Positions 36,121 to 44,466 of a DNA stretch of 64,000 nucleotides are shown in pieces. Location: positions 967-64,966 of the forward strand of contig WHSQ01000006.1 of the NCBI GenBank assembly GCA_009380005.1. Direction: 5' to 3'. The notes beneath the pieces were generated by a model. The model was not told where the DNA came from, searched no databases, and saw only the letters and a list, made by a program, of their open reading frames with translations. This stretch comes from Actinomycetota bacterium. GTDB lineage: Bacteria; Actinomycetota; CADDZG01; WHSQ01. A program made the position numbers and the translations under genes. Numbering within the stretch: position 1 is the first letter of the stretch; each line of letters opens with the position of its first letter.

Positions 36121-37275
36121 TCAGGAGTAGAGCGCGCCGGCCAGCTCCTCGAAGCAGCGATCGACGTCGCCTTCGTCGTTAAAGAAGTGCGGCGAGATCC
36201 TGAGGCAATCGGCGCGCCTGTCCACCACCACGTCGCGCTCGAGTAGTCGTGCCACTAGAGCCCCAGCCGCGGGTTCGCCCCCCGGGACCTTGACGCGGAC
36301 CAGGCCCCCGCGCCGTTCCGGCGTTCTTTCGCTCCGCACCTCCAGGTCCATCTCGTCGGCCCGCCGCAAGACCTCGTCGGTCAGTTCGAGGCTCCGGGCG
36401 CGGATGCGATCCACCCCGACCTCCTCGACGATCTCGAGCCCCCCGACGGCCGTCCATGCCTGCGGCAGCGCGTAGGTGCCGGTCTCGAACCGGCGCGCGT
36501 CGTCCCGGAACCGCAGCTCCGTGCGATCGAAACTGAACGGGTCCTTCGTCCCGAACCAGCCGACCACGGCCGGCTCCAGCCGCGCGATGAGGTCGCGCCG
36601 GCAGTAGAGGAAGGCGATCCCCTGGCCCCCGCACAACCACTTCAGCGCGCCGGCGAGATAGAGATCGATGCCGGTCGCATGTACGTCGATCGGTACGACC
36701 CCCGCGCCGTGGAAGTCGTCGACCACCACGAGCGCGCCGTGACGGCGGGCGGCGGTCACGATCGGATCGAGGGGGACGATGTACGAGGACTCGAAGAGGA
36801 CGCGGTTGACGTTGACGATCGCGGTTTGCTCGTCGATCCGGGCCGCGATCTCGGCCGGGTCCACGATCACGCCGTCCGGGCTCGGAACGACGTCGACCTT
36901 GGCGCCACGCCGCTGCTGGGCTCGCCACACGTGATGGTTCGTGGGGAAGTCCATGTCCGAGAGCACGACCTTCGTCCTGTCCGCGAAGTCGAGGCACGAC
37001 GCCACCGACGACAGCCCGGACGAGACGGAGGGGACGATCGCGATCTCGTCGTCCTCGGCCCCGATCAGGCGGGCGAAGCGAGCCCGGCACTCGTCGAGGC
37101 GGGGGAGCCCGTGCTCCATCCACAGCTCCTCCGGCCCCAGGCGCTCCCACAGATCGAGGTGTTCCTCCGCCAGGCGGCGGCTGCGGGTGGAAAGCGGACC
37201 GAGCGAGGCCGAGATGAGGTAGGTACGGGCCTCCACGACCGGGAACTCGGAGCGGTATCGGGCGAGATCGCTCAT
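36121..37275 (-). CDS. Class V aminotransferase-fold PLP-dependent enzyme
   Basis: The 384-aa N-terminus ([17 protein letters not shown]) and overall pattern resemble the cysteine desulfurase/kynureninase-like fold type I class V. Substrate is unknown. Confidence 0.75.
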
Positions 37276-37344
37276 GGGCGGCCCCAGGGTACGACGGCGC
37301 CCGGCGCCCGGAGAGTTACACGCGCGTCGTTTATCCTGCCGGAG

Positions 37345-40299
37345 ATGGCCGCGACCCCTTCAGGCACCCATGACCGGCTGGTCATCCGGGGCGCCAGAGA
37401 GCACAACCTCAAGAACGTCAACCTCGAGCTCCCGCGCGACCGGCTGATCGTCTTCACCGGGATCTCGGGCTCGGGGAAGTCGTCGCTGGCCTTCGACACG
37501 GTCTACGCCGAGGGCCAGCGACGCTACGTGGAGTCGCTGTCTTCCTACGCCCGCCAGTTCCTCGGCCAGATGGACAAGCCCGACGTCGACTTCATCGAGG
37601 GGCTCAGCCCGGCGATCTCCATCGACCAGAAGTCGGCCCCCAAGAACCCCCGGTCCACGGTCGGCACGATCACCGAGATCTACGACTACCTGCGGCTCCT
37701 CTACGCCCGGATCGGGCGGCCCCACTGTCACAACTGCGGCCGGCCCATCGCCCGCCAGACGCCGGAGCAGATCGTCGACCGGGTGCTCGAGATGCCCGCG
37801 GGGACGCGCTTCCAGGTGCTGGCGCCCATCGTGCGGAGCCGCAAGGGAGAGTTCACGAACCTGCTGGCCGATCTCGCCCGGCAGGGTTACGCACGCGCCC
37901 GCATCGACGGCGAGGTCAAAGACCTGTCCGAGAAGGTCCGCCTCGATCGCTATTTCCAGCACGACATCGACGTCATCGTCGACCGGCTCGTGATCAAGGA
38001 AGGGATCCAGAGCCGGCTGCAGGACTCGATCGAGACGGCGCTGAAGCTCGCCGAGGGGCAGGCCGCCATCGACCTCGTCGACGACGAGTCCGAGGACATC
38101 CTCTTCAGCCAGTTCTTCGCCTGCACGTTCTGCGGGATCTCGTTCGACGAGCTGGCTCCGAGGAACTTCTCGTTCAACTCGCCGTACGGAGCATGCGAGC
38201 GGTGCGATGGGCTGGGGACGCACCTCGAGGTGGATCCCGACCTCGTCATCCCGGACCCCGACCTCTCCATCGACGAGGGTGCCATCGCCCCGTGGTCGGG
38301 GCGGCGGCTCGAGTACTTCGAGCGTCTGCTGGAATCCCTGGCCAACAACTACGACTTCAAGACGAACGTTCCCTACAAGAGGCTTCCCAAGAAGATCCGC
38401 GAGCTCCTCCTGCACGGGTCGGAGGACGCCGAGGTTCACGTCCGCTACCGGAACCGTTTCAACCGCATCCGTTCTTACTGGACGACCTTCGAGGGAGTTA
38501 TCCCGTGGTTGGAGCGACGGCGCGACGAAACGGATTCGGACTACGCCCGGGAGCGCTACGAGCAGTACTTCCGCCAGGTCCCCTGCCCGCGCTGTGGCGG
38601 AGCGCGGTTGCGACCGGAATCGCTCGCCGTCACGCTCGGGGGAAAGAACATCCACGAGCTCTGCAACCTCTGCATCGGGGACAGCGACGACTTCTTGCGG
38701 CAGCTCGAGCTCGACGACCGTGAAACGACGATCGCCGAACGCGTGCTGAAAGAGATCCACGCACGTCTAGGCTTCTTGCTCGACGTCGGGCTCGATTATC
38801 TGGCGCTGGCCCGCAACTCGGCGACGCTGGCGGGAGGCGAGGCACAGCGCATCCGGCTCGCGACCCAGATCGGGTCCGGTCTCGTCGGCGTCCTCTACGT
38901 GCTCGACGAGCCGTCGATCGGTCTGCACCAGCGTGATAACCGGCGACTCATCGCGACGTTGGAGCGGCTGCGCGACCTGGGCAACACCCTGATCGTCGTC
39001 GAGCACGACGAGGAGACCATCATGGCGGCCGATCACGTCGTGGACATCGGTCCGGGGGCCGGGGACCACGGTGGTGAGATCGTGTACGCCGGTCCCTTGA
39101 GTGGCCTGGTCGAGAAGACCGACTCGGTGACCGGGGATTACGTCACCGGGCGGCGCAAGATCGAGGTTCCCAAGCAACGGCGCGAGCCGGAGAAGGGGCA
39201 GCTCGTCGTGCGGGGGGCCCGGCAGCACAACCTGCGGAACATCGACGTGGCGTTCCCGCTGGGTTGTTTCGTCACCGTCACCGGCGTCAGCGGCTCGGGG
39301 AAGTCGACGCTGGTGAACGAGGTCCTGCACCGAGCCGTGCACCAGAGATTGAACCGCCAGGCCCGGCTCGTGGCGGGCAAGCACAAGCGCATCGATGGGC
39401 TCGAGCTGATCGACAAGGTCATCGACATCGATCAGAGCCCGATCGGACGTACCCCGCGTTCGAACGCCGCCACCTACACGGGCGTGTTCGACCACGTCCG
39501 CAAGCTGTTCGCGCAAACTCCCGACGCCAAGCGGCGCGGCTACCTTCCCGGACGGTTCTCGTTCAACGTGCGCGGAGGGCGGTGCGAAGCGTGCGCCGGC
39601 GACGGGACCATCAAGATCGAGATGCACTTCCTGCCCGACGTCTACGTCCCCTGCGAGATCTGCAAGGGCAAGCGCTACAACCGCGAAACGCTCGCGGTCA
39701 AGTTCAAGGGCAAAAACATCTCCGAGGTCCTCGATATGAGCGTCGAGGAGGCGTGCGAATTCTTCGGCGCCATCCCGCCGATCGCGCGCCATATGAACAC
39801 GCTGCGGGACGTCGGCCTCGGCTACATCAAGCTGGGCCAACCCGCGCCCACCCTGTCCGGGGGCGAGGCACAGCGGGTGAAGCTCGCGTCCGAGCTCGCC
39901 AAGCGCTCGACCGGGCGGACCCTCTACATCCTGGACGAGCCGACCACGGGCCTGCACTTCGACGACGTAGCCAAGCTGCTCGGCGTCCTGCACCGGCTCG
40001 TCGACGCCGGCAACACGGTCGTTGTGATCGAGCACAACCTCGACGTGATCAAGACCGCCGACCACATCGTGGACCTCGGTCCCGAGGGAGGTGCGGGAGG
40101 AGGAACCGTTGTGGCCGAGGGAACGCCGGAACAGGTCGCCGAGACCGCGGGCTCTCACACCGGCCGGTACCTGAAGTCGCTCCTGGAGACGGGGCGTACC
40201 CCGGCCCGGGCGAAGGGCCTCAAGAAGAAGAGCACGAAGAAGGCGGCCGCGCCCCGCACCAAGCGGGCGGTGGCGACGGCGCGCCGCGCCGCGTCCTAG
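37345..40299 (+). CDS. uvrA: Excinuclease ABC subunit A
   Basis: The ATG at 37345 lies within track ORF 36679..40299. The protein begins [41 protein letters not shown] and has two ABC modules and zinc-finger Cys clusters. Confidence 0.97.
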
Positions 40300-41537
40300 C
40301 CGATCTCCGATTCGCCGAGACGGGCGACTTCCTCGCCGCCGATGAAGCGGGGCTCGGCCCCCTCGACGATGCTCTGCAGCTGATCGATCAGCAGGTTGCG
40401 GTTCAGCTTCAGCCCATGCCGCTCGGCGACCTTGTTGTACTCGGGGAACCGGGTGACCAGGTCGATCGCAACGGTCTCGAAGGCGTGGCGCCAGATGCGC
40501 TCGCGGGAGCCGTAGTCCATCAGGTTGAAGACGAAGAGGTGTTCGTCGTCGCTGCGCGGTTCGATCATGACGATGTCGACGTCGGGATGCTTGTGGCTGA
40601 TGATCTCGAGCTCGTTCTGGACCTGGGCCTGCGCCATGATCCGGAACGTCTGTGCCGCGATATGGGGGAAGCCCTTCTGCGAGATGTGCCGGGAGGGGAG
40701 CCCGGTCGCGGTCGGCAGCAGGTGACGTACGTCGTGGATGTACGGCACCAGGGGGTTGATGCAGACCACCAGCTTCGCTCCTCGCGCGATCGCGAGGTCG
40801 ATGTTCGTCGTGGACCGAAGCCCACCGTCGTAATAGACGCGCCCGTTGATCTCTCGCGGCGCGTAGAGCAAGGGGATCGCGGTGGACGCCGCCGCGGCGT
40901 CGGAGATGGTGACGTCGAGCGCGTCGTCGGCGCCGAACACGACCCGTTGCGCGCTGTCGAGATCGGTTGCGGTGATGGACAGCTTGCGCTTGGTGTTGCC
41001 GAACTCGTTCGATCGGCCCTCTTCGTTGAGGAGCCGGCGCAGATAGCGCTCCGTTCCGTCGGTGGTGTACAGCGCCTGGGGAAGACCCTCGGCCAGGGCC
41101 CCCAAGCCGTCGATCAGCGAGGTCGTGAACGGGTGGCCGACGTAGCGACGGACCGCGCCCAGCACCCCCAACGGCCACCGGACCATGGAGCGCAGCATGC
41201 CCTTGCGGTCCGGCTGCATGATCTCGTTGGCGCCGATCGCCTCGATCGAAGCGCCCCGGTGACCGAGGTTCGCAAGCGCGAGCTCCTCGGGGCTTATGTC
41301 GTTCGCCAGGCAAGCCGCTACGACCGCGCCGGCCGAGGTTCCGATGTAGAGATCGAAGTCGTTGACCGTGGCGCGCTCGCTCATCGCGTTCATGGCGTTG
41401 AGCACGCCCAGGTGATAGGCAGCCCCGCTGATCCCCCCGCCGCCCAGGACGAGGGCGACGCGTCCGTCGCTGGAACCCTTGGTCCCCGACTCCTGCTTGT
41501 GGAACTGCCCCTCGGAGAGGTGGATGACCGTGCCCAT
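40296..41537 (-). CDS. Patatin-like phospholipase family protein
   Basis: Oxyanion GGGGISG, the nucleophile elbow GTSAG, and a DGG Asp motif (YYDGGL) are present. 413 aa. Confidence 0.85.
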
Positions 41538-41629: not shown

Positions 41630-41706
41630 GGGCGGTTGGCTCAGCCTGGTAGAGCGCTTCGTTCACACCGAAGAGGTCACTGGTTCAAGTCCAGTACCGC
41701 CCACCA
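41630..41706 (+). tRNA. tRNA-Val (anticodon CAC), with encoded CCA
   Basis: Hand-folded cloverleaf. Acceptor is GGGCGGT/ACCGCCC and D arm is GCTC-AGCCTGGTA-GAGC. Anticodon arm is CTTCG-TTCACAC-CGAAG and T arm is ACTGG-TTCAAGT-CCAGT. Discriminator A is followed by CCA. Confidence 0.92.
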
Positions 41707-41838
41707 GTTCTGAAGGGCCAGTGCCGAGCGAGGTGTTGTCCTCGCCCAAGCCTCGGCAGCACGGTCAAACAACCCGAGGCGCACGATTGAACATTTCGCA
41801 GCCCGGCCGGTAGCGGTGCAATAACCGCGAAGAGTTCT

Positions 41839-42309
41839 TCATGGGCGGCTCCGGCGGCGCGCGCGATATGACTCAAGGGCCCAACCGCCGAGCGTGAATG
41901 CAGGAATGGTCAGGATGATGATCGCGAACAGACCGACTACCGTGGCTCCCACTGGATCCTCCGTCGTCCACAACGGGATGCCGATCGCGAGCCCTCCTGC
42001 AACCACGAAGAGAAGAGCGCCCGCGGCAAGGGGCTGCATCCTTGAGCCCCACGCCGTGAGAACGGCGAGGGCCGCAGCCACAACCAGGACTTCGACGGTG
42101 AACACGACCTTGACTCCCAAAGCGAAAGCGGGGCTGACCGTGGTCGTCGGCGCGTCCTGGATCTCCCGCGCCGTCATCAGCTGGAAAATGGCGATGTCGC
42201 TTCGTTTCGTCCTACCTGTTGCTTCATCTCGGCTCGAAGCCACTTTAGGAATCATCACAGGTCCTATCCGACAAGGCCTCGCATCTCGGCGAGCAGGTTC
42301 GAATAGCAT
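41839..42309 (-). CDS. Hypothetical small membrane protein (three predicted TM helices)
   Basis: The hydrophobic C-terminal 110 aa are plausibly coding. The first ~45 codons have poor GC3, so the true start is probably the internal ATG near 42177. GC3 looks lower than in core genes. Confidence 0.4.
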   Translation of the reverse strand: MLFEPARRDARPCRIGPVMIPKVASSRDEATGRTKRSDIAIFQLMTAREIQDAPTTTVSPAFALGVKVVFTVEVLVVAAALAVLTAWGSRMQPLAAGALLFVVAGGLAIGIPLWTTEDPVGATVVGLFAIIILTIPAFTLGGWALESYRARRRSRP

Positions 42310-42350
42310 CCACTTAGGCCCACGATCGGATCAGGACGGCTGACGGCCCC

Positions 42351-42812
42351 TTACGAGCTCTGGCCTGCCTTCGCGCTTTCGAAAGCGGCGGTGAAGTCGC
42401 CCACCTTCTCGAGCTTGGCGCATTCAGCCTGCACGACGGAGCCATCGTTGAAGCCGAAGCTCACCTTGTTCACCACGCCCTTGTCCACATCGAGCGAGGC
42501 GACCTGGTCGAGCGAGAACTCGCCGACGAGATCCTTCGGCTTGCCCATGAACGTGAAGTCGTAGATGAGGAGCCGGCGATCGGTCAGCCCGACGGCGGAC
42601 CTGACCATCGGCCAGCTCGCGGCGATGGAACCTTCGGTCTGCTGAGCGCTGCCCTTCTTGGCCTGACGGTCGCCGACCACCGCGCCCACGGCGCCGCCGA
42701 TTCCCATCGACATCGTCGAGCCCCGAGGCATCGTCCGGATCGCCCCCAGCAGCCGTTCGCCGGGTTCCAGGACCTCGCCGGCCTTGGGTTGAAGCTTGTC
42801 TGCGTAGCCCAC
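42351..42812 (-). CDS. Bacterial PH-like (bPH/YokE-like) domain protein
   Basis: The GTG at 42812 is preceded by a GGAGAG Shine-Dalgarno. The sequence pattern (GLTDRRLLIYDFTFMGKPKDLVGEFSLDQV...VSFGFNDGSVV) is typical of small actinobacterial PH-like proteins. Confidence 0.6.
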   Translation of the reverse strand: MGYADKLQPKAGEVLEPGERLLGAIRTMPRGSTMSMGIGGAVGAVVGDRQAKKGSAQQTEGSIAASWPMVRSAVGLTDRRLLIYDFTFMGKPKDLVGEFSLDQVASLDVDKGVVNKVSFGFNDGSVVQAECAKLEKVGDFTAAFESAKAGQSS

Positions 42813-42914
42813 GATCTCTCCTCTCTCGGCAACAGCTAGGGGAGCCTGTCTTGCTAGAGGACACGAGTCAATGGGGTTCCCCCGTCGGGGGTGAGCGGGG
42901 GGAAGGAATAAAGT

Positions 42915-43102
42915 CTGCTCGATGGCGCGCCCGAGCAGCGCGGCCGGCGGGCTGCCGTGCATCGCGTCGGGGTCCAGGGTCCCCGGCACCAGTCGCTCGG
43001 CTGGTAGCGGCGATCGTCGATCGCGGTGAAGAACGCCTCGGTCACGGGGGGCAGGTTAGCCGGATGGCGGCCTTCCCCCGCCGCTGAAACCCGTCGAACC
43101 AC
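42915..43102 (-). pseudogene. N-terminal stump of a thioesterase (4HBT_3 / acyl-CoA thioesterase-like) gene, with a 1-nt frameshift
   Basis: Frame A reads VTEAFFTAIDDRRYQPSDWCRGPW and frame B continues DPDAMHGSPPAALLGRAIEQ. Restoring one G in the run at CCCTGG-GACCCC joins them into the family's conserved GPW-DPD-xHGxPPAALL motif. Similarity ends at an AT-richer breakpoint near 42910. Confidence 0.6.
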
Positions 43103-43160
43103 CTTTCCGGCGGCCCGGCCCTTGTAGCAGCAGGCTGCGGGGCACGCGTCCGGGCTGTTA

Positions 43161-43203
43161 TTCGTTCACACCGAAGGTCACTGGTTCAAGTCCGGTACCG
43201 CCA
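43161..43203 (+). repeat. Displaced copy of the tRNA-Val 3' half (att-like direct repeat)
   Basis: TTCGTTCACACCGAAGGTCACTGGTTCAAGTCCGGTACCGCCA matches tRNA positions 41658..41702. The differences are a 2-nt gap in the variable region and one A-to-G change in the T stem. There is no 5' half, so it is not a gene. Confidence 0.85.
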
Positions 43204-43267
43204 TCACGCAACAGCAGGTCAGAACGCGTTGCTCCACCGTAGCGAGTGCGTTCCGCCTTCAGGCACC

Positions 43268-43392: not shown

Positions 43393-44466
43393 ATGGCCGA
43401 TAAGAGCAGAATGAGGGACGTATTCCGCCTGCGCGACGGTCGGCCCGATACGACGCTCGAGGAACAGCTACTGAACGAATGCGGGGCCATGCTTCGCCAC
43501 GCATCGGCGGCCGGGAAGAGGATCGCGCCGGCCGCCGCAGAGGTATTGAGCAGACTCATCGCCGATCGTGCGAAGCACGATGAAGGCTCGACCGACACGC
43601 CATGGAGGGTCACTAACCCCGGCGATCTCAGAGACCTGGCGATCACGCATCATCTGCTCGCTCGAACCGTCGCTCCGGCAACCCCCCAATCCATCACGGT
43701 GCTCAACGAGGAGAGACCAGGGAACAAGATCTCAGAGCTCTTGGGACCGGTCCGATTGGTGCGGTGGATGATGGTCCTCGCACTGATACTGCTGGTGGCC
43801 TTCTTGATCCTGCTCGCAACTCAAGACGTGAAACCCCTCCAAGAGCTCACCGACGGAGAGCAAGGGACGACCTCATGGGCGACGAACCTTGGGAGCGCTC
43901 TCTACGTTCTTTGCGCCGCCGGACTCGGGGCGATCTTTGCCAATCTCTTCAGAGCGAACTCTCGTATCGAAAGCGGGGTGTACGACCCGAAAGAGGAATC
44001 CTCGTATTCCGCATCCATCGTGATGGGCATGATCGCCGGCGTCATCCTGGCGCGGGTCGTGTCCGGCAACGTTCAGGAACTGGACAAGCTGACTCAACCT
44101 CTACTCGCCCTCCTCGGCGGATTTGCGGCTCCGGCGGTACACCGGGTCCTCACCCGCATGGTTGAAACGATCGAGGCGCTGGTTCAGGGCAGCGGGACCG
44201 AGCAGATCAGTGCCCAAGTCGAGGCGGCCGCAGCCCGGGCGGCGGCGAGCGCCGAGATGGATCGAGCAAGGCTGACGGCAGCAGCCATCAGGTTGCGAGA
44301 CGACGCCGCGGCAGAGAACCTGCCGGAGCCCTTCCGGACCAAGCTGACTTCTCTGGTGGGCGAGCTCCTTCCGATCGACGACAGCATCAATTCGTGGTCG
44401 GAACCAAGGGCTCGAACGACAAACGGAGCCGGCGCATCCGCGGACCAAGGCACGAACACGAGCTAA
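43393..44466 (+). CDS. Hypothetical membrane protein (soluble N-domain, about four TM helices, Ala-rich coiled-coil tail)
   Basis: The ATG at 43393 has a GAGGGAG Shine-Dalgarno. TM segments include LVRWMMVLALILLVAFLILLA and LGSALYVLCAAGLGAIFANLF. I recognise no family motif. Confidence 0.6.
   Translation: MADKSRMRDVFRLRDGRPDTTLEEQLLNECGAMLRHASAAGKRIAPAAAEVLSRLIADRAKHDEGSTDTPWRVTNPGDLRDLAITHHLLARTVAPATPQSITVLNEERPGNKISELLGPVRLVRWMMVLALILLVAFLILLATQDVKPLQELTDGEQGTTSWATNLGSALYVLCAAGLGAIFANLFRANSRIESGVYDPKEESSYSASIVMGMIAGVILARVVSGNVQELDKLTQPLLALLGGFAAPAVHRVLTRMVETIEALVQGSGTEQISAQVEAAAARAAASAEMDRARLTAAAIRLRDDAAAENLPEPFRTKLTSLVGELLPIDDSINSWSEPRARTTNGAGASADQGTNTS

What the first reader, a model, noticed from the sequence alone, without database searches (positions are those of the whole stretch)
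41630..43203. Intact tRNA-Val plus a displaced copy of its 3' half 1.45 kb downstream: att-like repeats around an integrase-less remnant
Seen: positions 43161-43203 repeat the tRNA-Val sequence from the anticodon stem to the acceptor 3' strand. The differences are a 2-nt gap and one substitution, and the copy is in the same orientation as the intact gene at 41630-41706. Between the copies lie only a small 3-TM ORF with visibly weaker GC3, a PH-like protein gene and a frameshifted thioesterase stump. No integrase or excisionase is present.

Knowledge: actinomycete integrative elements and prophages typically use att sites spanning the anticodon loop to the 3' end of a tRNA gene. This leaves exactly this kind of direct repeat.

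Inference: this is the eroded footprint of an integrative element, or of successive insertions, at tRNA-Val.
Basis: partly seen in the sequence, partly recalled or inferred. Interest (0 to 1): 0.6.

Follow-up and report, generated by a model that had tools for sequence, protein, structure and literature searches.

The report
Two-layer integration scar at tRNA-Val
The 1.45 kb after this tRNA-Val gene is leftover DNA from at least two mobile-element insertions made by two kinds of recombinase, an ordinary type of genomic scar that here shows how gene modules without a recombinase pile up next to tRNA genes in uncultured soil Actinomycetota.

Summary
tRNA-Val(CAC) lies at 41630-41706. A same-strand copy of its 3' part (tRNA position 29 to the end) lies at 43161-43203, with a 2-nt gap, one substitution and a decayed tip.

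The att-scar reading is supported:
- Three more partial copies with the same 5' boundary sit on small contigs of the same MAG.
- In relatives, the same repeat type brackets an 8.7-kb island at tRNA-Val(CAC). That island carries a tyrosine integrase, an excisionase-like HTH, an AAA_25 protein and a capsid gene.
- The window copy is followed by what looks like the native tRNA-Val flank.

New here: the interval is composite. At 42297-42323 lies a 27-nt site, GTTCGAATAGCATCCACTTAGGCCCAC. I read it as the element-side half-site (P arm) of a large serine recombinase family that inserts at the extreme 3' end of tRNA genes.
- An empty site, a 0.7-kb insert and a 6.6-kb insert were found at one tRNA-Ile locus in three congeners.
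- The recombinase gene, or its remnant, abuts the tRNA in two loci that carry the 27-nt site at the far end.

So the small membrane-protein gene is a younger module, and the PH-like gene plus thioesterase stump are an older remnant.

Overall this is a known kind of feature, of modest interest.

The parts
41630..41706 (+). Intact tRNA-Val(CAC), with CCA encoded. It is the anchor and target of the insertions. It follows the conserved uvrA-like gene (36679-40299) and patatin gene (40296-41537).
   Evidence: ARAGORN. Rfam tRNA 67.4 bits. Single copy in the assembly. uvrA-patatin-tRNA-Val synteny is conserved across genera.
41658..41706 (+). The attL-type part of the tRNA: the segment that is repeated at 43161-43203 and on contigs C413 and C151.
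   Evidence: Alignment of five copies with a common 5' boundary TTCGTTCACACC.
41707..42296 (-). Younger module between the tRNA 3' end and the 27-nt site. It holds one ORF, 41839-42177 (-), 112 aa, about three TM helices, no known family. The recombinase-side end of the original element (P' arm plus recombinase gene) is missing.
   Evidence: ORF and translation. No Pfam, NCBIfam or PHROGs match. No homologue in the MAG or in fetched loci. The bounding of the module is inferred.
42297..42323 (+). 27-nt site GTTCGAATAGCATCCACTTAGGCCCAC. I read it as the P-arm half-site (attR side) of a large-serine-recombinase element that inserted at the tRNA 3' end. It resembles a tRNA 3' end (T-loop, T-stem and acceptor strand, closest to tRNA-Ile) with 5 extra nt after the T-loop.
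   Evidence: - One copy in the window, none expected by chance.
- 10 copies in the MAG; present in 11 of 86 family genomes; reversed-pattern control gave 0.
- Conservation has a sharp edge on the flank side.
- Homology between loci breaks at its edge.
- It lies downstream of, and co-oriented with, tRNA genes.
- Empty and occupied sites were found.
- The recombinase gene is linked to it.
42324..43160 (-). Older remnant. It holds a PH-like gene, 42351-42812 (-), 153 aa, and the N-terminal stump of a thioesterase-like gene, about 42896-43102 (-), with a frameshift near 42990.
   Evidence: - bPH_3 E 0.012 and 4HBT_3 E 0.045, both below cut-off.
- The PH-like gene is patchy in the family: 28 of 86 genomes have any match, and 12 other genomes have one at 45% identity or more.
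- It sits at unrelated loci with no shared flanks.
- Stump frames were read.
43161..43203 (+). Decayed displaced copy of the tRNA-Val 3' part (tRNA position 29 to the end). It is the attR-type relic of an anticodon-loop-type insertion, probably by a tyrosine integrase.
   Evidence: The same repeat type brackets a tyrosine-integrase island in relative G002.
43204..43230 (+). Probable native flank of tRNA-Val, with GCAGGTCAGA at 43214-43223. This marks where the ancestral chromosome resumes.
   Evidence: The same short flank motif follows tRNA-Val(CAC) in G002 and G009, and follows 27-nt-site junctions on three metagenome contigs. The evidence is modest: about 10-12 nt at a fixed distance.

Best explanation
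The 1.45 kb between tRNA-Val(CAC) and the displaced copy of its 3' half is inserted DNA that accumulated in at least two steps. It has lost both of its recombinase genes.

Step 1 (older). An integrative element with a tyrosine integrase recombined with the tRNA gene in the anticodon-loop region.
- The element supplied a new 3' half to the tRNA.
- The original 3' half was pushed to the far end of the element, now 43161-43203, next to the native flank that starts at 43204.
- The element then decayed to a PH-like gene and a truncated thioesterase gene.
- The relic picked up a 2-nt deletion and point changes.

Step 2 (younger). A different element, moved by a large serine recombinase, inserted at the extreme 3' end of the same tRNA.
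- Its far end is the 27-nt site at 42297-42323, the P arm of its attP joined to what was then the tRNA's flank.
- An internal deletion later removed the recombinase gene and the P' arm. These normally abut the tRNA.
- Only a small membrane-protein gene and the 27-nt site remain.

What is shown and what is inferred.
- Shown: the repeats; their boundaries; the empty and occupied sites, and the linkage to the recombinase gene, in related loci.
- Inferred: the order of events in this window; the tyrosine-integrase identity of the first element; and that the membrane-protein gene arrived with the serine-recombinase element.
For: 1. The repeat is real, far beyond chance, and starts at tRNA position 29.

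2. Three further partial copies with the same 5' boundary exist in the MAG. They lie at C413:272-320 and twice, 825 bp apart, on C151. The flank of one C151 copy resembles the flank of the window's tRNA.

3. Relatives show the same pattern at tRNA-Val.
- G002 has tRNA-Val(CAC), then a 372-aa tyrosine integrase, an HTH_17 excisionase-like protein, an AAA_25 protein and a Phage_capsid gene. An exact repeat of more than 60 nt follows, running from the anticodon loop past the tRNA end, 8.7 kb downstream. A second, decayed copy lies 2.5 kb further on.
- G004 and G025 have integrase genes, or a fragment of one, next to a tRNA that matched the tRNA-Val query. The tRNA type was not checked.
- G024 has a 0.5-kb scar at tRNA-Val(CAC) with no integrase in the interval.
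- G018 has a 3.3-kb interval between tRNA-Val(GAC) and a partial copy. Its content was not checked for a recombinase.

4. The uvrA-patatin-tRNA-Val block is conserved, but nothing downstream of it is shared between genera.

5. The relic is followed by a flank like that of tRNA-Val in G002 and G009.

6. The 27-nt site.
- At one tRNA-Ile locus in one genus, G065 is empty, G066 has a 692-nt single-gene insert and G064 has a 6.6-kb insert. Both inserts end in the site directly against the native flank.
- In G064, and on metagenome contig L075 (at tRNA-Tyr), the tRNA end is followed by a conserved P' arm (..TTATTCGAACTCGGGCGCGAG). This arm overlaps the 3' end of a serine-recombinase gene remnant that reads towards the tRNA. 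The 27-nt site lies at the other end.
- Full-length homologues with Resolvase, Recombinase and Zn_ribbon_recom domains occur on the MAG's own contig C81, whose sequence starts inside P'. They also occur next to tRNA-Arg in G084, and in G098 behind a contiguous P-core-P' site, GTTCGAATAG-N28-TTATTCGAAC.
- Genomes with a recombinase homologue at 70% identity or more are enriched for the site: 4 of 5 against 7 of 81, Fisher P = 7e-4.
- The site equals a tRNA 3' end with the T-loop-like block moved 5 bp outward. This is the attP-versus-attB half-site relation described for serine integrases (PMC3783163, read).
Against: - No genome of the same genus or species was available, so no empty or differently filled site could be shown for this exact tRNA-Val locus.
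Excision joints and strain variants could not be examined.
- The window has no recombinase and no recognisable P' arm after the tRNA. Assigning the membrane-protein module to a serine-recombinase element therefore rests on analogy with other loci.
- Composition does not mark the interval as foreign: GC3 is 0.75 and 0.86 against a genome value of 0.81 +/- 0.06.
- The PH-like gene also occurs elsewhere in the family as an ordinary single gene.
- The interval has no similarity to known phages or plasmids beyond the tRNA.
- The native-flank argument rests on only about 10-12 nt.
- One P-arm sequence type is found after five different tRNAs. This needs either a tolerant recombinase or secondary movement of modules, and neither was tested.
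Confidence: 0.78

Rival explanations
1. There was a single event. One integrative element inserted at tRNA-Val and eroded in place, and the 27-nt site at 42297-42323 was simply carried inside it as cargo or as an old scar. In this reading there was no second insertion at this tRNA.
For: - The window has no P' arm or recombinase remnant next to the tRNA.
- Copies of the 27-nt site also occur in arrays away from any visible tRNA, on contigs C630 and C11 of the MAG and on G005:C146. Islands can therefore carry them internally.
Against: - In about 8 of 12 loci that could be assessed, plus metagenome contig L075, the site lies 0.6-2.6 kb downstream of a tRNA in the tRNA's orientation. The window fits this, at 590 nt and co-oriented.
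- At tRNA-Ile and tRNA-Tyr the segment from the tRNA to the site is demonstrably one insertion unit.
Confidence: 0.14
2. The partial copy is not an att site. It is the remnant of a tandem duplication of the tRNA-Val gene (a pseudo-tRNA), or part of a structured regulatory RNA, and the genes in between are ordinary chromosome.
For: The composition of the interval is not clearly foreign. The PH-like gene is found in other genera of the family.
Against: - The copy lacks the whole 5' half and starts exactly where four other copies start.
- There is no Rfam match to the copy or to the other partial copies.
- The same repeat type brackets an integrase-bearing island in G002.
- No two genera share the arrangement.
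Confidence: 0.04
3. The 27-nt site belongs to some other system: an integron-like attC, a Xer/dif-like site, a promoter or a small RNA.
For: Arrays of co-oriented copies separate one- to three-gene units. The site often lies 27-47 nt after a stop codon, as an attC would.
Against: - No integron integrase: TIGR02249 gave nothing above cut-off in 11 genomes that carry the site.
- No stable or shared fold: z-scores +0.6 to +1.4.
- No Rfam match.
- The site is absent from 75 of 86 family genomes, so it is not a host dif site or a regulator box.
- Downstream genes are often convergent, so it is not a promoter.
- The linkage to the serine recombinase and the empty site explain it better.
Confidence: 0.04

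Closest known systems
Integrative elements (prophages, satellites, AICEs, genomic islands) that insert in tRNA genes with a tyrosine integrase and cross over in the anticodon loop
   Same: - A direct repeat runs from the anticodon stem or loop to the tRNA 3' end.
- The intact tRNA lies at one end and the displaced 3' part at the other.
- Relative G002 has the full version at the same tRNA: integrase next to the tRNA and reading towards it, excisionase-like HTH, replication protein and capsid gene.
   Different: In the window the integrase, the excisionase and nearly all of the element are gone. Only about 0.85 kb remains, and the relic itself has decayed.
ssrA-specific genomic islands of Dehalococcoides (serine recombinase DsiB; PMC3146451) and SCCmec composite islands of staphylococci (Ccr serine recombinases)
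   Same: - The serine recombinase gene lies on the reverse strand directly next to attL, at the 3' end of a small RNA gene.
- Islands stand in tandem, separated by short direct repeats.
- Many islands lack the integration module; that paper calls these 'cis-mobilizable' or fixed.
   Different: - The targets here are tRNA genes of several kinds (Ile, Arg, Tyr, Glu, Val), not tmRNA or rlmH.
- The modules are very small, 0.6-2.6 kb.
- The repeated boundary is the element's own 27-nt P arm, not an exact copy of the target's end.
- No second small recombinase (DsiA or CcrA type) was looked for.
attP and attB half-site architecture of phage large serine integrases (Listeria A118-type integrase; PMC3783163)
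   Same: The half-site nearest the crossover is alike in the tRNA (attB side) and in the 27-nt site (attP side). The outer 8-9-bp block (GTTCRAAT, the tRNA T-loop) lies 5 bp further out on the attP side. The attP-like site in G098 is about 48-50 bp long with inverted outer blocks.
   Different: Nothing was tested biochemically. The crossover dinucleotide is not mapped more finely than a 9-10-nt shared stretch (TGGGCCCACC at tRNA-Ile).
tRNA-proximal islands built by serial accretion, such as the tycheposon islands of Prochlorococcus (recalled from memory, not checked here)
   Same: Partial-tRNA repeats separate cargo modules at a tRNA hotspot, and many modules lack a recombinase.
   Different: The host phylum and the recombinase families differ. 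Here two unrelated site types are nested at one tRNA.

Membership tests
att scar of a tRNA-targeting integrative element (anticodon-loop type) | Direct, same-strand repeat of the 3' part of an intact tRNA gene, beyond chance | tested here: met
   A 16-nt exact stretch plus 27 of 28 nt. Both test patterns occur only at these two places, with 0.00-0.06 expected by chance.
att scar of a tRNA-targeting integrative element (anticodon-loop type) | The repeat starts in the anticodon stem or loop and runs to the tRNA end, with a reproducible boundary | tested here: met
   Starts at tRNA position 29. Three other copies in the MAG have the same boundary and a fourth starts 3 nt later. G002, G024 and G018 have boundaries in the anticodon loop.
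att scar of a tRNA-targeting integrative element (anticodon-loop type) | Integrase gene inside the repeat-bounded interval, next to the tRNA | tested here: not met
   None in the window (the list was cut). Present in the homologous arrangement in G002. The window is therefore a remnant, not an element.
att scar of a tRNA-targeting integrative element (anticodon-loop type) | Empty or differently occupied site in close relatives | tested here: inconclusive
   No genome of the same genus is held, and no close relatives were found in other collections. Across genera the content after tRNA-Val always differs. The relic has a native-like flank.
attR half-site (P arm) of a large serine recombinase element | Serine recombinase gene at the tRNA-side end of units that carry the 27-nt site at the other end | tested here: met
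   G064:C77 (tRNA-Ile) and metagenome contig L075 (tRNA-Tyr). In both, the recombinase remnant overlaps the P' arm next to the tRNA and the site lies 6.6 kb or 1.9 kb downstream. This is not met in the window itself.
attR half-site (P arm) of a large serine recombinase element | Precise empty site: target joined directly to the flank that follows the 27-nt site | tested here: met
   In G065:C46 the tRNA-Ile is directly followed by the flank that follows the site in G066 and G064.
attR half-site (P arm) of a large serine recombinase element | attP about 50 bp with inverted outer motifs; the attB half-site has the same motif 5 bp nearer the centre | tested here: met
   G098:C29 has GTTCGAATAG-N28-TTATTCGAAC. 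The P arm equals the tRNA end plus 5 nt after the T-loop, for both the Ile-type and the Arg-type arms. The rule is taken from PMC3783163.
attR half-site (P arm) of a large serine recombinase element | Recombination of attP with attB by the cognate enzyme | not testable with these tools
   Needs an in vivo or in vitro assay.
Integron gene cassette array | IntI-type integrase and folded attC sites | tested here: not met
   TIGR02249 gave no match above cut-off in 11 genomes that carry the site. There is no stable or shared fold.
Known structured RNA family | Match to an Rfam covariance model | tested here: not met
   Only the intact tRNA matches. There is no match to the relic, to the 27-nt site or to the site arrays.

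The most novel reading that the evidence does not exclude
The 27-nt site marks a so far undescribed family of large serine recombinase elements in soil Actinomycetota.

- The element's attP arm imitates a tRNA 3' end: the T-loop block moved out by 5 bp, followed by the T-stem and acceptor strand.
- One arm type can therefore dock at the 3' ends of several different tRNAs (Ile, Glu, Tyr, Val-CAC, Val-TAC) without damaging them.
- Through repeated insertion and internal deletion, the elements build arrays of one- to three-gene modules that lack a recombinase and can still be moved in trans.
- The MAG holds 10 copies of the site and one intact recombinase. That recombinase's contig breaks inside the att site, as would be expected if several junction forms coexist.
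Probability: 0.4. Interest if true: 0.55.

Novelty: new member of a known kind. Interest (0 to 1): 0.36.

Why it matters
For the finding as given, this is a routine annotation result. It fixes where the ancestral chromosome resumes (43204). It also marks the two small genes and the stump as flexible-genome cargo.

The wider point is methodological and ecological.
- In these uncultured Actinomycetota, tRNA genes are shared landing pads for at least two recombinase systems.
- Short conserved half-sites such as the 27-nt site let one delimit tiny recombinase-less modules that composition-based island finders would miss.
- If the serine recombinase really accepts several tRNA ends, it would be a natural example of target recognition through the universal T-loop. 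That may interest people who use serine integrases as tools.

Tried and rejected
Closer relatives and empty sites for this locus.
- The search for related loci with the patatin protein found nothing in metagenome contigs or genome contigs.
- An exact-protein look-up found nothing.

Similarity of the interval to phages and plasmids. Only the tRNA matched. The 27-nt site has no exact match in the viral contig collection.

Function of the cargo. Pfam, NCBIfam and PHROGs gave nothing above threshold for the membrane ORF, the PH-like ORF or the following 357-aa ORF.

Composition as an island marker. It is not informative for the interval.

Other readings of the 27-nt site.
- Integron attC: rejected, because there is no IntI and no fold.
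- Xer/dif-like site or host regulator box: rejected, because the site is absent from 75 of 86 family genomes.
- Promoter: rejected, because downstream genes are often convergent.
- Small RNA: rejected.
- Coding sequence on either strand: rejected. Only short, interrupted frames were seen. The weak downstream 'peptide' pattern fades within about 25 nt.
- Literature search for the sequence: no hit.

A second same-genus empty-site test, at tRNA-Val(TAC) in genus g47, gave no clean comparison.

Placing contigs C413, C151 and C81 by end overlaps failed.
Full report
1. THE OBSERVATION

ARAGORN finds a single tRNA in the window, tRNA-Val(CAC) at 41630-41706 on the + strand. Rfam agrees at 67.4 bits. 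It is the only tRNA-Val(CAC) in the 639-contig assembly.

Downstream on the same strand:
- 43161-43176 repeats 41658-41673 exactly.
- 43175-43202 repeats 41674-41701 at 27 of 28 positions, offset by two bases.

In addition the last bases have decayed (CCATCA for CCCACCA). An 18-mer and a 24-mer with up to three mismatches each occur only at these two places, with 0.00-0.06 expected from shuffles. The copy begins at tRNA position 29, the 5' strand of the anticodon stem. It has no 5' half and is not seen by Rfam.

The interval holds:
- a membrane ORF, realistically 41839-42177 on the - strand, 112 aa;
- a 153-aa ORF at 42351-42812 (-), with only a sub-threshold bacterial PH-domain match (bPH_3, E 0.012);
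- a stump of about 60 codons, split over two frames, with a weak acyl-CoA thioesterase N-terminal match (4HBT_3, E 0.045).

No tyrosine or serine recombinase is encoded on this contig (the list was cut). The membrane ORF is at 0.75 and the PH-like ORF at 0.86, against a genome value of 0.81 +/- 0.06. The real outlier is the gene after the relic, at 0.65.

2. IS IT AN ATT SCAR?

Several independent lines say yes.

(a) The MAG contains three more partial tRNA-Val copies on small unplaced contigs: C413:272-320, and two copies 825 bp apart on C151. Three of the four partial copies, the window's included, start at the same base (TTCGTTCACACC). The fourth starts three bases later. A shared 5' boundary is what a site-specific crossover leaves, and it is not what gene decay leaves. 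The flank of one C151 copy resembles the flank of the window's intact tRNA. This hints that these contigs are alternative forms of the same locus in co-assembled strains, but I could not place them.

(b) The family of the MAG consists of uncultured Actinomycetota. Across its genera the block uvrA-like gene, patatin gene, tRNA-Val(CAC) is conserved. Nothing downstream of the tRNA is shared between genera.

(c) Relatives show the same repeat type with the machinery still present.
- In G002 the tRNA is followed by a 372-aa tyrosine integrase reading towards it, an HTH_17 excisionase-like protein, an AAA_25 protein and an HK97-type capsid gene.
- 8.7 kb downstream lies an exact repeat, running from the anticodon loop to 16 nt past the tRNA end.
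- A second, decayed copy lies 2.5 kb further on.
- G004 and G025 have integrase genes, or a fragment of one, next to a tRNA that matched the tRNA-Val query. The tRNA type was not checked.
- G024 has a 0.5-kb interval at tRNA-Val(CAC) with no integrase in it. G018 has a 3.3-kb interval at tRNA-Val(GAC) that I did not check for a recombinase.

(d) The window's relic is followed by ..CAACAGCAGGTCAGAACG... The same short motif (GCAGGT[CA]A, 10-14 nt after the tRNA end) follows the tRNA-Val of G002 and G009. This is as expected if the ancestral chromosome resumes at 43204. The evidence is modest, because the shared stretch is short.

(e) The PH-like gene is an accessory gene. 28 of 86 family genomes have any match, and 12 other genomes have one at 45% identity or more. 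It sits at unrelated loci with no conserved flanks.

3. A SECOND SITE INSIDE THE INTERVAL

While comparing relatives I noticed that window 42297-42323 recurs elsewhere. On the + strand it reads GTTCGAATAGCATCCACTTAGGCCCAC.

Distribution:
- 10 copies in the MAG, co-oriented within contigs: C630 has four in 5 kb and C11 has three.
- It is present in 11 of 86 family genomes, often with all 27 bases identical across genera. The reversed-pattern control gave zero.
- It also occurs on a contig labelled Gemmatimonas and on 13 metagenome contigs.

Form:
- Conservation is confined to 27-29 nt. It has a sharp edge on one side and a gradual decay on the other.
- Homology between loci starts or stops at its edge.
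- It has no stable fold and no Rfam match.
- No integron integrase accompanies it.

4. WHAT THE 27-NT SITE IS

Read on the + strand of the window, the site lies 0.6-2.6 kb downstream of a tRNA gene, in the tRNA's orientation, in eight of about twelve assessable loci, plus one metagenome contig:

| tRNA | Loci |
|---|---|
| Val(CAC) | the window, 590 nt |
| Glu(TTC) | four genomes |
| Ile(GAT) | two genomes |
| Val(TAC) | one genome |
| Tyr | one metagenome contig |

The decisive comparison is within one genus, at one tRNA-Ile locus:
- G065 has tRNA-Ile directly followed by a DUF1684 gene flank.
- G066 has a 692-nt single-gene insert there.
- G064 has a 6.6-kb insert there.
- Both inserts end in the 27-nt site directly against that same flank.

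In G064 the tRNA end is followed by a conserved sequence..CCTATTCGAGCTCGGGCGCGAG. It overlaps the 3' end of a truncated large-serine-recombinase gene (Zn_ribbon_recom, E 3e-9) that reads towards the tRNA. Metagenome contig L075 shows the same at tRNA-Tyr. There the tRNA is followed by TTGCCCTCTTATTCGAACTCGGGCGCGAG and the last 49 codons of the recombinase, and the 27-nt site lies 1.9 kb downstream.

Full-length homologues (481-557 aa; Resolvase, Recombinase and Zn_ribbon_recom domains) occur in three places:
- on the MAG's own contig C81, whose sequence begins inside that conserved arm;
- next to tRNA-Arg(CCT) in G084;
- in G098, behind a contiguous site GTTCGAATAG-N28-TTATTCGAAC, which looks like an intact attP.

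Genomes with a close recombinase homologue are enriched for the 27-nt site (4 of 5 against 7 of 81, Fisher P = 7e-4).

Finally, the site equals a tRNA 3' end with five extra bases after the T-loop:
- GGTTCAAAT-----CCATCTGGGCCCAC in tRNA-Ile, against GGTTYGAATAGCATCCACTTAGGCCCAC in the site.
- The Arg-type arm relates to tRNA-Arg in the same way.

For serine integrases, Rutherford et al. showed that the motif bound by the zinc-ribbon domain lies 5 bp nearer the centre in attB than in attP (PMC3783163, read). The 27-nt site is therefore best read as the P arm of attP, left at the attR junction. The tRNA's T-loop and acceptor strand serve as the corresponding attB arm.

5. READING OF THE WINDOW

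Taken together, the ancestral state was tRNA-Val followed by the flank now at 43204.

- An anticodon-loop-type element, by analogy a tyrosine-integrase element like that of G002, inserted and displaced the old 3' half to 43161-43203.
- That element decayed to the PH-like gene and a thioesterase stump.
- Later a serine-recombinase element inserted at the very end of the tRNA. Its attR half-site is at 42297-42323.
- An internal deletion then removed the recombinase and the P' arm, as is half-done in G064 and L075. The membrane-protein gene was left.

The order and the deletion are inferred. Metagenome contigs L077, L079 and L080 show the 27-nt site directly against a flank of the tRNA-Val type. 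This supports the idea that such elements do use tRNA-Val(CAC).

6. COMPARISON WITH WHAT IS KNOWN

The outer repeat is a textbook tRNA att scar.

The inner system works like the ssrA islands of Dehalococcoides and like SCCmec composite islands (PMC3146451):
- The serine recombinase lies next to attL, on the reverse strand.
- Islands stand in tandem.
- Many islands lack an integration module.

It differs in three ways:
- It targets several tRNAs.
- Its modules are very small.
- Its repeated boundary is the element's own tRNA-like arm.

I file the finding as a new member of a known kind. The promiscuous, tRNA-mimicking serine-recombinase family is a plausible but untested extension.

7. LIMITS

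- No same-genus genome was available.
- The MAG is fragmented at exactly the relevant places: tRNA-Glu is cut at a contig end, and C81 starts inside the att site.
- Notes from other windows describe similar small recombinase-less modules at tRNA genes in other phyla. I used them only as leads.

Noticed in passing
window 42297-42323; MAG contigs C630 (2042, 2761, 5395, 6825), C11 (49051, 56898, 60460), C635 (2383), C301: A 27-nt site (+ strand GTTCGAATAGCATCCACTTAGGCCCAC) occurs 10 times in the MAG in co-oriented arrays that separate one- to three-gene units. These include a mazEF-like pair, alpha/beta-hydrolase-type genes and a DUF1684 gene. It is present in only 11 of 86 family genomes. I read it as the P arm of a large serine recombinase attP.
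   Followed up: yes
MAG contig C81 (2393 nt), gene on the - strand, about 54-1496: An intact 481-aa large serine recombinase (Resolvase, Recombinase and Zn_ribbon_recom domains). The contig begins inside the conserved P' arm, so the assembly breaks in the att site. This would be expected if integrated, tandem or circular forms coexist. A second N-terminal fragment (79% identical) lies on C542.
   Followed up: partly
L075 593-675, G064:C77, G084:C206 (loci L060, L065): The 3' end of the serine recombinase gene runs through the P' arm and across the crossover into the tRNA (antisense). The C-terminal tail and stop codon of the protein therefore differ between the integrated and excised states.
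   Followed up: no
MAG contigs C413 (272-320) and C151 (121-166, 946-992): Three further tRNA-Val(CAC) 3'-half copies. The two on C151 bracket an 825-bp islet downstream of a GAF-domain gene. C413 shows direct repeats (ACGGGGACCA twice) after its copy that look like integrase arm sites.
   Followed up: partly
MAG contig C5, 6376-6412 (contig end): The only trace of tRNA-Glu(TTC) in the assembly stops at the anticodon region at a contig end. In relatives, tRNA-Glu carries both 3'-half repeats (G004:C59) and 27-nt-site junctions, so it is probably another hotspot that broke the assembly.
   Followed up: partly
metagenome contig L081, 2031-2100: The 27-nt site is directly joined to a tRNA-Glu 3' half (from the anticodon loop to the end). 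The two kinds of att relic therefore abut each other.
   Followed up: no
window 43394-44466: The first gene after the relic (357 aa, about four TM helices, Ala-rich tail, no family) has the lowest GC3 in the neighbourhood, 0.65 against 0.81 +/- 0.06. No homologue was found in the tRNA-Val loci fetched from relatives. The island may once have extended further, or this cluster was acquired separately.
   Followed up: partly
MAG as a whole: The MAG has 33 matches to the tyrosine-recombinase domain, against 1-9 in most relatives (G008 has 16, G025 has 17). Many are on very short contigs, which points to an unusually large or heterogeneous mobilome in this population.
   Followed up: no
G059 and G060: Several exact 27-nt copies of the tRNA-Val(TAC) 3' end are scattered on different contigs of two congeneric genomes. 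This suggests yet another tRNA-end repeat family.
   Followed up: no
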